Shown here piece after piece: positions 5,597-56,820 of a stretch of DNA of 64,000 nt. The stretch comes from Eledone cirrhosa. Lineage: Eukaryota. A program made the position numbers and the translations under genes. The notes under the pieces are model-generated. The model worked only from the letters and a program-made list of their open reading frames with translations. It was not told where the DNA came from and made no database searches. The DNA lies in contig OZ024741.1 in the NCBI GenBank assembly GCA_964016885.1, forward strand, positions 313,472,001-313,536,000, given 5' to 3'. Numbering within the stretch: the stretch's first letter is position 1; every line of letters starts with the position of its first letter.

Positions 5597-5898
5597 GGAA
5601 TAGAATGAAACGAAATTTCATTTCTGACTCTTAGTACGGCACTGACTTAAATGTAAGTATTATCTATGTATACGTACATATATATATATATACAGGCGTA
5701 CAGAAGTATGTATATATATGCATACATGCACATTTATTATAATGCTCGGTTTGTTTGTTTGTAAACAAACAAACAGCCCGAGCATTATAATAAATATTCG
5801 GTAAACCGATACGTGCATGTATATATGTGTGCATGTACGTATATATATACATACTGCTGGACGTGTATACATATATGTATGTACGTATACATACATAC

Positions 5899-34153: not shown

Positions 34154-34288
34154 AATGCCGAGAAGGAAAGTTTGGTGTTGCTTGTTATGGGACCTGCCAT
34201 TGTATCAACAACATGAACTGTGACAAGCGAAATGGAACATGTTTAGATGGATGTTCCGCAGGTTATGCTGGTGTCAATTGCCAAGAAG
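34154..34288 (+). CDS. EGF-like repeat exon, C/D chimera, intact
   Basis: ag|...|gtattg, 135 nt; (E)[44 protein letters not shown]. Confidence 0.85.
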
Positions 34289-34493: not shown

Positions 34494-34898
34494 TATATAT
34501 GTATAAAAAAATATATATATGTATATGTATATTTATAGCTAACAAACTTGAAACTAGTACATCGTTCCTGTGTCATTGTTGAACAAAAAGGTGACGTGGT
34601 TGCCTGTACACTGTACGGCGTAAATTAGGCTGTTCGTTTGTTTACAAACGGACAAAGCGAACATTATAACAAATGTACGGTAAACTGATACTTGCATATA
34701 TATATATGTGTGCCTGTATATATATATATATATATATATATTGGAATAATTGCTCTGAAATAGCGATATATATGTGAATATAGACATAGAATATTCGAAA
34801 ATATTCTGTATGTTTATAATAAACATTTTGAAGACCTAATCGCTATAGAATAGAATACGTCACGTATTACAATTAGATTCTCGATAAAAGCAAGGGAA

Positions 34899-34941
34899 GT
34901 AATCTACGCGTTTCATTCTTGTTAGAAATCATCAGGACTAC
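34899..34941 (-). ncRNA. Type I hammerhead ribozyme, family 1, inverted copy (second inverted copy 35199-35241)
   Basis: gtaatctacgcgtttcattcttgttagaaatcatcaggactac is the exact reverse complement of the + strand motif. Confidence 0.85.
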
Positions 34942-35276
34942 ATATCCAGTGCTTTTATCGAGAATGACACAGCTAGAGACTTATAGAATACTTAGCTGTG
35001 TACAGGAACTGGTTTGAAAGAGCGGTTGCCGGTCCGGCAGAAATTTGAAATTGGAATAAATGCTCTGAAATAGCGATATATATGTGAATATAGACATAGA
35101 ATATTCTGTATGTTTATAATAAACATTTTGAAGACCTAATCGCTATAGAATAGAATACGTCACGTATTACAATTAGATTCTCGATAAAAGCAAGGGAAGT
35201 AATCTACGCGTTTCATTCTTGTTAGAAATCATCAGGACTACATATCCAGTGCTTTTATCGAGAATGCACTGGATAT

Positions 35277-35319
35277 GTAGTCCTGATGATTTCTAACAAG
35301 AATGAAACGCGTAGATTAC
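35277..35319 (+). ncRNA. Type I hammerhead ribozyme, family 1 (identical copies at 35587, 35897, 36207, 36517, 36827, 37137)
   Basis: GTAGTC-CTGATGA-t-TTCT-aaca-AGAA-t-GAAA-CGCG-TA-GATTAC. Helix I is GTAGTC/GATTAC, the core is intact, helix III is the palindrome ACGCGT, and the GUA cleavage triplet is at 35311-35313. Confidence 0.85.
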
Positions 35320-37907
35320 TTCCCTTGCTTTTATCGAGAATCTAATTGTAATACGTGACGTATTCTATTCTATAGCGATTAGGTCTTCAAAATGTTTATT
35401 ATAAACATACAGAATATTTTCGAATATTCTATGTCTATATTCACATATATATCGCTATTTCAGAGCATTTATTCCAATTTCTAATTTCTGCCGGACCGGC
35501 AACCGCTCTTTCAAACCAGTTCCTGTACACAGCTAAGTATTCTATAAGTCTCTAGCTGTGTCATTCTCGATAAAAGCACTGGATATGTAGTCCTGATGAT
35601 TTCTAACAAGAATGAAACGCGTAGATTACTTCCCTTGCTTTTATCGAGAATCTAATTGTAATACGTGACGTATTCTATTCTATAGCGATTAGGTCTTCAA
35701 AATGTTTATTATAAACATACAGAATATTTTCGAATATTCTATGTCTATATTCACATATATATCGCTATTTCAGAGCATTTATTCCAATTTCTAATTTCTG
35801 CCGGACCGGCAACCGCTCTTTCAAACCAGTTCCTGTACACAGCTAAGTATTCTATAAGTCTCTAGCTGTGTCATTCTCGATAAAAGCACTGGATATGTAG
35901 TCCTGATGATTTCTAACAAGAATGAAACGCGTAGATTACTTCCCTTGCTTTTATCGAGAATCTAATTGTAATACGTGACGTATTCTATTCTATAGCGATT
36001 AGGTCTTCAAAATGTTTATTATAAACATACAGAATATTTTCGAATATTCTATGTCTATATTCACATATATATCGCTATTTCAGAGCATTTATTCCAATTT
36101 CTAATTTCTGCCGGACCGGCAACCGCTCTTTCAAACCAGTTCCTGTACACAGCTAAGTATTCTATAAGTCTCTAGCTGTGTCATTCTCGATAAAAGCACT
36201 GGATATGTAGTCCTGATGATTTCTAACAAGAATGAAACGCGTAGATTACTTCCCTTGCTTTTATCGAGAATCTAATTGTAATACGTGACGTATTCTATTC
36301 TATAGCGATTAGGTCTTCAAAATGTTTATTATAAACATACAGAATATTTTCGAATATTCTATGTCTATATTCACATATATATCGCTATTTCAGAGCATTT
36401 ATTCCAATTTCTAATTTCTGCCGGACCGGCAACCGCTCTTTCAAACCAGTTCCTGTACACAGCTAAGTATTCTATAAGTCTCTAGCTGTGTCATTCTCGA
36501 TAAAAGCACTGGATATGTAGTCCTGATGATTTCTAACAAGAATGAAACGCGTAGATTACTTCCCTTGCTTTTATCGAGAATCTAATTGTAATACGTGACG
36601 TATTCTATTCTATAGCGATTAGGTCTTCAAAATGTTTATTATAAACATACAGAATATTTTCGAATATTCTATGTCTATATTCACATATATATCGCTATTT
36701 CAGAGCATTTATTCCAATTTCTAATTTCTGCCGGACCGGCAACCGCTCTTTCAAACCAGTTCCTGTACACAGCTAAGTATTCTATAAGTCTCTAGCTGTG
36801 TCATTCTCGATAAAAGCACTGGATATGTAGTCCTGATGATTTCTAACAAGAATGAAACGCGTAGATTACTTCCCTTGCTTTTATCGAGAATCTAATTGTA
36901 ATACGTGACGTATTCTATTCTATAGCGATTAGGTCTTCAAAATGTTTATTATAAACATACAGAATATTTTCGAATATTCTATGTCTATATTCACATATAT
37001 ATCGCTATTTCAGAGCATTTATTCCAATTTCTAATTTCTGCCGGACCGGCAACCGCTCTTTCAAACCAGTTCCTGTACACAGCTAAGTATTCTATAAGTC
37101 TCTAGCTGTGTCATTCTCGATAAAAGCACTGGATATGTAGTCCTGATGATTTCTAACAAGAATGAAACGCGTAGATTACTTCCCTTGCTTTTATCGAGAA
37201 TCTAATTGTAATACGTGACGTATTCTATTCTATAGCGATTAGGCCTTCAAAATGTTTATTATAAACATACAGAATATTTTCGAATATTCTATGTCTATAT
37301 TCATATATATATATATATATATACATGCTTCTGTACGTCTGTATACATATATGTATGTACGTATACATACATACTTACATTTGAATATATATATGTATAT
37401 ACGTAAATACATTTATATATATACCGTATATGCCGGTGTAAAAGTTGTTCCACTGCATATGTCGACCATTCAAATTTTGTGGTACAAATCAGGTTTAGAC
37501 CTATATACGCCAGTTTAGACGACACCCCTTGTATAATGGATTACCTTCTCCCCAGCCGTAGATATATTTGCGGTTGTTTATTTGCATAAAACAGAAAACA
37601 TTAACATAAACACTAATTGTAAAATAAAAATGCATGTGAAGAAAATACAAGTTGCAAAATGTATGTTTCAGTTAACAAAATGAATTAACTGAACTGTTTT
37701 ATTAGTAAACAATATCCTACCACACCGTGACTTGATACGCGGAAATTTTAAAAACCTAAGTATTCCTTATTCAATGTCTATCAGCTTAGATGGCGATATA
37801 TATTTACTTTCGTCCTGTTATGTTTCGTGGGTAAATTACAGTAGTTTTTCCATAATTTAGATAATTCAGTGAATCAGTATAACATTAATATAATAATTAA
37901 TACTTAC

Positions 37908-39058
37908 AGGAATCGCTTGTGAGGACAATGTATGCAATGTACAGGGGTGCTGTATGTAAAGTGATAATAGAAATGTAGTTTGAGAGGAATTCCATATAAA
38001 AGTAGATGTACATCAAGGTTCGCTCCCCAGCCCAATCTTGTTCATTATAGTCCTCCAAGCCATAACAGAGGAATTTAAGTCTGGCTGCCCATGGAATCTT
38101 CTCTATGCTGATGATTTGGTTCTTATAGCAGATTCAGTAGAGGAGCTAGAGAATAAATTATGTCTATGGAAACAGCTGTTGGAATCAAGACGCCTGAGAC
38201 TGAACATAGCTAAACAAAAGCGTTGACAAGTAGAATAGAGGACAATGCCCTCCGTGGAATTGGCCATGATGGATATATAGGAAAGGAACTGAGATAAATT
38301 CCATAAAATCTACGCAATGCTGATCTTGGAGACACAAGAGATGTAGTGGGAGAGCGGGCAAACTAACAGGTAGGGAAAACTACGTATGCAATAGAGGTAC
38401 AGCGAAAGTTGGCAGTAGTACTTGCTGTGATAGACTTATTTTTCCAAAGCAGGTGGGTTCTATAGAAGAGGTTGTTCGCTTCCGGTACCTAGGTGATGAA
38501 TGATATAAGCATGGGAGGAGGGTGTTCCGCGTCCATCTAGAATAAGGACGGGTTGGATGAAGTTTTGGAGCTACTTCCTCTGTTGAGAAAAAGGCGTTTC
38601 TCCCTGCGTAGAAAATGACGGTTATATGATACATGTGTGAGATGCGAGGATGCTCCATGGTAGTTAACAATGGACAGCAACTGCTGAAGATTTGCGACGG
38701 CTGGAGAGAAATGAAGCAAGTATGCAACGTTGGATGTGCAATTTTAACGTGCGTGAACGACCAAGCATAGACGAGTTGAGAAGGAAACTGGGTATGATAG
38801 GGATAAGTTGTGGTGTGCAGGAGAGAAGGCTGACATGGTATGGACATATGATGTGCATGGAGGATGATCGGTGGGTGAAGAAGTGCCAGGAAGTCCAAGT
38901 GGAGCGAAAACGCAGTGGAGGTATACCACGAAAAACATGGGCGGTGCCGGTGAAACTCACCAAGGAGATGACAAAGGACCGTAACAGGTTGGGCGATGCT
39001 GTGCTGAATAGAACCCGTCCAACTATTGTAAACAGGGGAAAGCGGGCGGAAAATGATA
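37908..39058 (+). mobile_element. RTE-type LINE fragment
   Basis: YADD and RLTWYGH motifs. Confidence 0.75.
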
Positions 39059-40584: not shown

Positions 40585-40960
40585 ATATCTCATAAAATTG
40601 TTGCGTACTTACTAAACACACACACGCACATACACACAACTATATACCCAACCCACACACACACATATACATGTATATATATATATAAATGGAATAGAAT
40701 GAAACGAAATTTCATTTCTCACTCTTAGTACGGCACTGACTTAAATGTAAGTATTATCTATGTATACGTACATACATATATGTATACAGACGTACAGAAG
40801 TATGTATTTATATACATACATTTGTACAAACAAACAAACCGAGCATTATAATAAATGTTCGGTAAACCTATACGTGCATGTATATATGTGTGCATCTACG
40901 TATATATATACATACTACTGTACATGTATGCATATATGTATGTACGTATACATACACACA

Positions 40961-56360: not shown

Positions 56361-56394
<34 letters not shown>

Positions 56395-56402
<8 letters not shown>

Positions 56403-56820
56403 AGATCAAAAGATGGTTAAAGGAGTTCCATGTATTTTATTATGCGCATTTCAAAAACAAACATCATCATGCAATAATATTTGTGTTTTCATCAGATAAA
56501 ACAAGAGAACATGATATGAAGGCTAAAAAACACTTGTGGATAGTGCAGTTTTAAATCAAGATATGTTGATTTAAAACTGCACTATCCACAAGTGTTTTTT
56601 AGCCTTCATATCATGTTCTCCTGTTTTATCTGATGAAAACACAAATATTATTGCATGATGATGTTTGTTTTTGAAATGCGCATAATAAAATACATGGAAC
56701 TCCTTTAACCATCTTTTGATCTTATATTATGTATACTCCAGTCCTACAAATTGTAGAGTGCTTCTTATCCGATATCTGCATTGCTTTATTGTACTACAAT
56801 AAAACTCACCTCCTACATTA
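56395..56820. mobile_element. Fold-back insertion with 165-bp inverted arms, each with a hammerhead (family 3)
   Basis: Arms 56395-56559 and 56566-56730, 6-nt spacer, one mismatch seen; lies in (TA)n; absent from the paralogous site near 25260. Confidence 0.75.
56624..56690 (+). ncRNA. Type I hammerhead ribozyme, family 3 (inverted copy 56435-56501)
   Basis: TTTTAT-CTGATGA-AAACACAAATATTATTGCATGATGATGTTTGTTTTT-GAAA-TGCGCA-TA-ATAAAA; helix III is the palindrome ATGCGCAT; AUA triplet. Confidence 0.7.

What the first reader, a model, noticed from the sequence alone, without database searches (positions are those of the whole stretch)
34741..37303. Intronic 310-bp tandem array in which every unit carries a hammerhead ribozyme (retrozyme/circRNA-like system)
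Seen: six full + strand units plus a partial one, virtually identical. Each has an intact CUGAUGA/GAAA/GUA core, helix I GTAGTC/GATTAC, helix II TTCT/AGAA and a palindromic helix III (ACGCGT). A perfect 16-bp stem (ATTCTCGATAAAAGCA/TGCTTTTATCGAGAAT) extends helix I. The unit has other hairpins (ACACAGCTA/TAGCTGTGT; AGAATATT/AATATTCT) and no coding capacity. Known: minimal type I hammerheads with palindromic helix III cleave as dimers and mark metazoan non-LTR retrozymes and Penelope pLTRs, whose tandem transcripts self-process into monomers and circRNAs. Inference: this is a young retrozyme family giving 310-nt linear or circular RNAs, perhaps mobilised in trans by a Penelope-like RT. The uniformity of the units would fit reverse transcription around a circular template. 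Caveat: the first helix II position is a U-U mismatch.
Basis: partly seen in the sequence, partly recalled or inferred. Interest (0 to 1): 0.9.

Follow-up and report, generated by a model that had tools for sequence, protein, structure and literature searches.

The report
Young hammerhead retrozyme with Penelope-type insertions
This is one of more than a thousand near-identical insertions of a 310-base non-coding repeat that carries a predicted self-cutting RNA (hammerhead) in every unit; its back-to-back arms, two fixed ends and shared mutations show the footprint of a Penelope-like jumping-gene enzyme that likely copied it round and round from a small RNA circle.

Summary
Real, and larger than reported. 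The locus has two arms: 6.6 units on the + strand and a missed inverted arm of 1.7 units, with nine type I hammerhead motifs in all. It sits in the (TA)n of an older hammerhead repeat. The genome holds at least 1,245 such ends. Of 96 resolved insertions, 84 have back-to-back arms ending at two fixed points about 30-35 nt apart, far from the cut site. This is the Penelope-like 'tail' signature, and autonomous Neptune-type elements in this genome insert the same way. Both arms share one haplotype (44 of 46). Mutations shared by all units spare the ribozyme and its stem (1 of 14 disruptive, against 16 of 19 single-unit mutations). No 5' end stops at the cut site (0 of 124). Best reading: a young non-LTR retrozyme, mobilised in trans, likely from a circular RNA. 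Not shown: cleavage, RNA, circles, or the partner element. Three loci fit a linear template better. Retrozymes are known; I found no paper describing this insertion anatomy for them. The scan noted a similar insertion in another genome (e1-7908855), judged there a truncated Penelope copy; that reading fails here.

The parts
34740..35266 (-). Inverted arm, 1.7 units. 5' truncation at monomer +249 (inner junction); 3' 'long' end at +163 to +165 joined to (TA)n. One unit has a 10-bp deletion. Monomer numbering: +1 is the first base after the predicted cut (35314).
35266..37303 (+). Main arm, about 6.6 units of 310 bp. 5' truncation at +263; 3' 'short' end at +130 (ambiguous to +139 = 37312 because the unit itself holds an AT run) joined to (TA)n.
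35277..35319 (+). Type I hammerhead motif, first of seven at 310-bp steps (last 37137-37179). Predicted cuts after 35313, 35623, 35933, 36243, 36553, 36863 and 37173.
   Evidence: cleavage predicted, not shown
35199..35241 (-). Hammerhead motif in the inverted arm; predicted cut between 35205 and 35204
34899..34941 (-). Second hammerhead motif in the inverted arm; predicted cut between 34905 and 34904
35563..35651 (+). 16-bp stem (35563-35578 with 35636-35651) extending helix I beyond an internal loop; repeated in later units. All-unit variants in it mostly give G.U pairs.
35443..35478 (+). 'Tail' between the two fixed 3' end points (+130 to +165) in the first full unit; inferred to be the two reverse-transcription start sites
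   Evidence: compare PMC11167929
35474..35548 (+). CCAAT (+161) and TATA-like (+230) motifs, 119 and 50 nt upstream of the next hammerhead core. The same order occurs in sister families B and C and in Neptune pLTRs. Promoter role inferred only.
34538..34739 (+). Left part of the target: an older hammerhead repeat (family D), 88% identical to copies in L210, ending in its internal (TA)n
37304..37382 (+). Right part of the target: rest of the (TA)n and the colinear continuation of family D (96% identical)
34154..34288 (+). Upstream host exon copy (EGF-like, AG/GT flanks); context only

Best explanation
This is a young non-autonomous hammerhead retrozyme whose insertions carry the end structure of Penelope-like elements, and it is likely copied from a 310-nt RNA circle by a Penelope-like (Neptune-type) reverse transcriptase-endonuclease acting in trans. 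Steps: (1) a tandem arm is transcribed, likely from a CCAAT/TATA-type promoter inside each unit [inferred]; (2) neighbouring hammerheads cleave, likely as dimers through the palindromic helix III, and release monomers [predicted; selection on the motif is shown]; (3) a host ligase circularises them [inferred from PMC7229834]; (4) the borrowed enzyme nicks both strands of a (TA)n tract and primes at two internal sites, about +130 and +165 [ends and targets shown; enzyme inferred]; (5) each cDNA runs through many units and stops at a random point [shown]; (6) the two truncated cDNAs are joined back to back, often by 1-6 nt microhomology [shown]. I put mobilisation by Penelope-like machinery at about 0.9, and the circle as usual template at about 0.7 given that.
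For: Dispersed and young: 4,177 exact copies of the window's 43-nt hammerhead, control 0; 1,245 exact short ends and 1,036 exact +165 ends on (TA)n. Of the first 100 short ends listed, 97 were examined: 84 have an inverted second arm ending at +159 to +172, 12 are single-armed, 1 is unresolved. No long ORF was found inside the insertions scanned, and the PLE-protein hits lie outside the arms. An autonomous 4.2-kb RT + GIY-YIG family here (N2) makes the same two-armed insertions, with ends near +129 and +172 to +190 after its own hammerhead. Papers describe the inverted 5'-truncated copy, the 30-40 bp one-sided tail and the (TA)n bias for PLEs and tie the tail to two internal RT starts. Both arms share one haplotype in 44 of 46 insertions, chance 0.13. 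33 haplotypes occur in 90 insertions, so new mutations repeatedly spread to every unit, as a one-monomer bottleneck predicts. All-unit substitutions in the ribozyme and stem are disruptive in 1 of 14 cases (none in the core), single-unit ones in 16 of 19; Fisher p=1e-5. No 5' end lies at the cut site (0 of 124) over about 650 crossings. If ordinary copies were linear templates, about half of new arms should overrun the source's junction; only L073 shows a small internal rearrangement. Sister families keep the helices by compensatory change, including C3-G8 to U3-A8.
Against: No RNA, cleavage or circle was observed. The partner was not identified: the post-cut regions of N1 and N2 show no significant similarity to the unit (226 and 29 of 300 shuffles scored as high). 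L106 has the same ordered two-haplotype mosaic in both arms, and L094 and L246 each have a single-unit variant at the same rank in both arms; a monomer circle cannot give these. Long arrays (L034b, L082, L097/98) show local re-duplication after insertion. In vitro, hammerhead cleavage was not needed for insertion by a lizard PLE, and 8 of 9 Xenopus retrozyme dimers did not cleave. All sampled insertions of this family except the window's lie in the first 220 Mb of contig C1, and most were picked by an end pattern.
Confidence: 0.66

Rival explanations
1. The same Penelope-like machinery copies uncleaved linear multimer transcripts from a few long master arrays. The hammerhead matters only for RNA processing or export, not for making a circle.
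For: Mirrored ordered variants in L106, L094 and L246. Unprocessed RNA was the dominant substrate for the lizard PLE in vitro. Arms of more than 40 units exist (L097/98) and could serve as masters.
Against: It needs many separate homogeneous masters (33 haplotypes in 90 insertions) and no way is given for a new mutation to reach every unit. Most single-unit variants are not mirrored: 84 of 108 non-fixed occurrences with the same rank covered in the other arm. Source junctions or flanks are not captured.
Confidence: 0.22
2. These are truncated terminal (pLTR) copies of an autonomous Penelope-like element that later grew into local tandem arrays by unequal crossing-over, as a satellite would.
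For: Proposed as a route in the 2026 preprint. An earlier scan note read a similar 302-nt insertion in another genome this way. Long arrays show local duplication.
Against: No arm runs from the unit into an ORF in the insertions examined, whereas N2 arms do. Both inverted arms are tandem, in phase, and share one haplotype. A two-armed locus with a tandem arm is the rule, not a late exception: 93 of 103 loci have at least two tandem hammerheads in one arm.
Confidence: 0.07
3. RT jumps from the 5' end of one cleaved linear monomer to another monomer and so builds concatemers without a circle.
For: Mosaic arms exist (L092, L041, L106). Small insertions next to the cut site occur in some haplotypes (2insC, 2insT).
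Against: Jumps between pool molecules should mix haplotypes often, yet 44 of 46 insertions are uniform. Unit joints at the cut site are almost always exact, and no arm ends there.
Confidence: 0.04
4. The array or its inversion is an assembly artefact.
For: Identical tandem units and palindromes are hard to assemble; the copy number at this locus was not checked with reads.
Against: Junction positions differ from locus to locus and show microhomology, 27 of 40 with at least 2 nt against 18% expected. The flanks are colinear halves of one older repeat. Contigs of a public run show AT-run loose ends at +139 and +170 (that run may be the source sample).
Confidence: 0.01

Closest known systems
Metazoan non-LTR retrozymes (Cervera and de la Pena 2020, PMC7229834: coral, mussel, axolotl Rtz_353 / HHR_Amex2)
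   Same: Non-coding 150-450 bp tandem units, one type I hammerhead per unit, low GC, thousands of copies, weak palindromic helix III, U.U at the base of helix II (as HHR_Amex2), and a circular fold that leaves the ribozyme free.
   Different: There, RNA and circles were shown; here they are not. Here insertions are two back-to-back arms with two fixed ends and a (TA)n target and have no readable target-site duplication. That paper's main text has 0 hits for 'inverted' or 'microsatellite' and leaves the mobilising enzyme open; its supplement was not read.
EN+ Penelope-like elements, Neptune type (Craig 2021, PMC8557442; Frangieh 2024, PMC11167929)
   Same: Inverted 5'-truncated copy, 30-40 bp tail at one end only, microsatellite target, hammerhead upstream of two internal RT start sites, ends unrelated to the ribozyme cut.
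   Different: No ORF; 310-bp unit instead of kilobases; arms of up to about 45 head-to-tail units; canonical-size rather than minimal hammerhead.
Vertebrate retrozymes as PLE derivatives (Li, Clavereau and Pollet 2026, bioRxiv 10.64898/2026.07.22.740005)
   Same: Same conclusion that retrozymes depend on PLEs; similar unit length.
   Different: Their evidence is co-occurrence and pLTR homology, with local satellite-type amplification suggested. Here the evidence is the insertion anatomy and variant pattern, and pLTR homology to a partner was not found. 'Tail' has 0 hits in that text; its supplements are closed.

Membership tests
Metazoan non-LTR retrozyme | Short tandem unit (150-450 bp) with a type I hammerhead in every unit | tested here: met
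Metazoan non-LTR retrozyme | No ORF; simple tandem units rather than LTR-body-LTR | tested here: met
   Longest stop-to-stop frame 59 codons; unit maps. PBS and PPT were not searched for separately.
Metazoan non-LTR retrozyme | Dispersed multicopy family | tested here: met
Metazoan non-LTR retrozyme | Ribozyme structure conserved or under selection | tested here: met
   covariation with sister families, (the window's row is out of register for helices I and III in that alignment)
Metazoan non-LTR retrozyme | Self-cleavage in vitro | not testable with these tools
   Bench test needed
Metazoan non-LTR retrozyme | Expressed as linear and circular monomer RNA | not testable with these tools
   No RNA holder was listed, which is no evidence either way
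Metazoan non-LTR retrozyme | Target-site duplication longer than 4 bp when present | tested here: inconclusive
   Both ends lie in (TA)n, so none can be read
Autonomous EN+ Penelope-like element | ORF with RT and GIY-YIG endonuclease between pLTRs | tested here: not met
Insertion made by Penelope-like machinery | Inverted 5'-truncated copy and one-sided 30-40 bp tail | tested here: met
   84 of 96 resolved insertions
Insertion made by Penelope-like machinery | AT-rich or (TA)n target | tested here: met
   partly built into the end patterns, but also seen in the loci picked by the hammerhead alone
Insertion made by Penelope-like machinery | Co-resident autonomous PLE with a homologous terminal region | tested here: inconclusive
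   Neptune-type families N1-N3 are present but show no significant homology; only a small part of 10,596 GIY-YIG candidates was examined
Rfam hammerhead families (clan CL00010) | Score at or above gathering threshold | tested here: not met
   HH9 19.2 bits against 52

The most novel reading that the evidence does not exclude
Each insertion records one RNA circle read twice: a dimeric Neptune-type RT-endonuclease primes from both nicked strands of a (TA)n tract at two sites on the same circle and rolls round it. This would be genomic proof that animal hammerhead circles retrotranspose, that the ribozyme is essential for the parasite though dispensable for the enzyme, and that twin internal priming explains the inverted-plus-tail structure of Penelope-like elements in general. 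A weaker add-on (about 0.1 on its own): recurrent A-to-G haplotype changes in stems could be A-to-I edits written back into DNA.
Probability: 0.4. Interest if true: 0.86.

Novelty: new variant of a known kind. Interest (0 to 1): 0.66.

Why it matters
The 2020 retrozyme paper leaves open which enzyme moves these RNAs and whether circles are the template. The 2021 PLE paper calls hammerhead function and the origin of the tandem/inverted structures unclear. This family offers more than a thousand very young insertions with base-precise ends, a 310-nt substrate, predicted RT start sites and candidate enzymes in the same genome, so both questions become directly testable. The inverted arms would also place long double-stranded RNA and self-cleaving motifs in any host transcript that crosses them.

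Tried and rejected
Rfam at gathering score: nothing; miRNA-type hits at E-value level only reflect the perfect palindrome at the junction. DNA search of the genome with the monomer returned 0 candidates although patterns give thousands of matches; the tool skips common words. An apparent pile-up of five 5' ends at the cut site was a BLAST edge artefact; base-level mapping gave 0 of 124. RNA: no RNA holder listed. Three runs hold one 340-nt cyclic contig at depth 10-15; a tandem array gives the same contig, so this is not evidence for a circle. Partner search: N1 and N2 post-cut regions show no significant alignment; BLAST of families A, B and C against 56 PLE loci hit only separate small insertions and simple repeats in the part of the output shown. 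Family E has a near-identical helix II (7,832 exact matches), but no ORF was reached in 13 fetched stretches. A-to-I editing: all-unit A>G 11 versus T>C 5, against 7 versus 20 in single units (p=0.01), but outside the ribozyme and stem the ratio is 5 versus 4 (p=0.13), and G.U tolerance explains the rest. Arm lengths are roughly exponential (KS p=0.09 for 190 arms, 0.025 without the two longest), which does not separate circle from linear. No Pol III A or B box match. Read support across this locus's own junction remains unchecked. Literature searches for this anatomy in retrozymes found none, but most subscription journals are not covered.

Full report
Observation. The array is real. Six + strand units of 310 bp from 35266 are identical and a partial unit follows. 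Each carries a type I hammerhead motif: 6-bp helix I, intact core, U.U then a 4-bp helix II, and a self-complementary helix III whose intermolecular duplex is -7.5 kcal/mol. The predicted cut is after 35313 and every 310 nt. I number the monomer from the base after the cut (+1 = 35314). The two arms meet 5' end to 5' end at 35266 (+249 and +263) and end outward at +165 (34740) and +130 (37303). The left flank matches positions 1-203 and the right flank positions 211-289 of an older hammerhead repeat (family D), so the insertion landed in that repeat's internal (TA)n. The locus lies between EGF-like exon copies on the + strand; expression of that gene was not tested. The host is a 3.0-Gb genome; the named relatives of its Penelope-like protein come mostly from bivalve molluscs or their symbiont assemblies. 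My impression that it is octopus-like is recalled and untested.

Family. The window's 43-nt hammerhead occurs 4,177 times exactly, control 0. Two end patterns joined to (TA)n occur 1,245 and 1,036 times, a lower bound on insertions. Of the first 100 short ends listed, I examined 97: 84 have an inverted second arm ending at +159 to +172, 12 are single-armed and 1 ran off the fetched stretch. In the set picked by the hammerhead alone (window plus 12 insertions), 11 of 12 resolvable ones were two-armed with one short and one long end; L033 ends in an assembly gap. Inner ends are scattered over the whole unit, 0 of 124 at the cut site. Of 62 junctions, 22 have inserted bases; of the other 40, 27 show at least 2 nt of microhomology against 18% expected. 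L033, L073, L090 and L095 were left out because of gaps or complex structure.

Which machine. Published PLE insertions have an inverted 5'-truncated copy, a 30-40 bp tail at one end and a microsatellite bias (PMC8557442, passages seen). In vitro the tail lies between two internal RT start sites downstream of the hammerhead (PMC11167929, main text read). This genome holds RT + GIY-YIG elements with the CX4CX2C linker that marks Neptune-type PLEs (clade assigned from that motif as described, no tree built). One of them, N2 (4.2-kb unit, 4,762 exact hammerhead matches), makes the same two-armed insertions with ends near +129 and +172 to +190 after its own U.U-bearing hammerhead. It is a positive control for the anatomy, not a proven partner: no significant similarity to the unit was found for N1 or N2. 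CCAAT and TATA-like motifs precede the hammerhead in the unit, in its sister families and in N1, N2 and family E; a promoter role is inferred.

Which template. In 46 insertions with both arms of at least 520 nt, 44 share one haplotype; random pairing would give 0.13. There are 33 haplotypes among 90 insertions over 1 kb, so new mutations keep reaching every unit of an insertion, which needs a one-monomer bottleneck. Arms cross the cut site about 650 times without stopping there. If ordinary copies served as linear templates, about half of new arms would overrun the source's junction; this is not seen, apart from a small rearrangement in L073 and a 272-bp foreign insert in L036. A ligated circle explains all this. 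Against it: L106 shows the same ordered mosaic in both arms, and L094 and L246 show a single-unit variant at the same rank in both arms. These need a linear or multimeric template, or copying between arms. Long arrays also re-duplicate locally.

Is the ribozyme used. In 103 insertions, distinct all-unit substitutions in the hammerhead and 16-bp stem are disruptive in 1 of 14 cases, none in the core; single-unit ones in 16 of 19 (p=1e-5). The tolerated changes sit at N7, loop II and wobble positions, and one turns U.U into A-U. Single-unit changes may include sequencing errors, and transitions favour wobble pairs, so the test is somewhat generous. Two older sister families (B about 320 nt, C about 315 nt) share +59 to +235 and the same layout. 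Across 12 sequences of the three families, 7 of 13 pairs change on both sides, including C3-G8 to U3-A8; slid controls give at most 2. Relatedness inflates such counts, and the window's row is misregistered for helices I and III. U3-A8 is a known natural variant (PMC4209133, results and discussion read). The U.U has a cleaving precedent in the axolotl (PMC7229834, results and discussion read). Activity itself is untested, and 8 of 9 Xenopus dimers failed to cleave (bioRxiv 10.64898/2026.07.22.740005, abstract to discussion read).

Comparison and novelty. The family meets the genomic definition of a metazoan non-LTR retrozyme; the RNA-level features could not be tested. It is not an autonomous PLE. 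The link between retrozymes and PLEs and the idea of copying round a circle are both in print as proposals. I found no paper showing PLE-type inverted arms, tails, clonal haplotypes or selection on the ribozyme for a retrozyme (searches; term counts). Supplements of these papers were not seen and could bear on this, and the anatomy may be common but unexamined in other species. An earlier scan note on another genome (e1-7908855) read a similar insertion as a truncated PLE; tested here, that reading does not fit.

Verdict. A real, very young retrozyme family of a known kind whose insertion anatomy points to Penelope-like machinery (about 0.9) and, less surely, to a circular template (about 0.66 overall). 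Interest 0.66: unsurprising as an object, valuable as a direct handle on how these RNAs move.

Noticed in passing
window 56379-56820: A second two-armed inverted insertion with a hammerhead-like motif of another family (F) between (TA)n tracts; 99.6% identical to copies in L199.
   Followed up: partly
window 34538-34739 and 37304-37382; L210 7900-9800; also window 5608-5741 and 40702-40821: Family D: a roughly 490-bp tandem hammerhead repeat with an internal (TA)n, U.U at the base of helix II and a palindromic helix III. It is the target of the studied insertion.
   Followed up: partly
L142, L186 and related loci: Older sister families B (U3-A8 core; 1,107 exact matches of a 35-nt word) and C share the end and promoter-like module with the studied unit but have a rewritten stem and ribozyme.
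   Followed up: yes
L299-L311: Family E (7,832 exact matches): two-armed insertions with arms up to about 1 kb and a helix II nearly identical to the studied one; no ORF reached.
   Followed up: partly
L127, L128, L129, L193-L216: At least three Neptune-type PLE families with long ORFs; N1 has a U3-A8 hammerhead in a 1.1-kb pLTR; L216 has a full 4.2-kb N2 copy in each inverted arm.
   Followed up: partly
monomer +274 to +310 across 103 loci: All-unit variants pile up at tolerated ribozyme and stem positions (13 of 57 possible changes) compared with the rest of the unit (20 of 705). Either the rest is tightly constrained or ribozyme variants are favoured. Unexplained.
   Followed up: partly
L092, L041: Mosaic for 276A>G: in L092 the four outer units of one arm lack it; in L041 a single unit lacks it. 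Template switching, conversion or editing could each explain this.
   Followed up: partly
runs X1, X3, X6: Three differently labelled organisms from three studies each hold one 340-nt cyclic contig matching the window's unit at depth 10-15. Carry-over from a high-copy repeat or a close relative is likely; unresolved.
   Followed up: no
L036 3599-3870: A 272-bp unrelated sequence is captured between the two arms.
   Followed up: partly
window 1-64000: At least 17 tandemly duplicated EGF-like exon copies with duplicated introns (80-96% identical); some have stops or lack the GT donor.
   Followed up: partly
window about 37900-38500 and paralogous segments: A degraded reverse-transcriptase-like fragment duplicated with the host intron; seen by eye only.
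   Followed up: no
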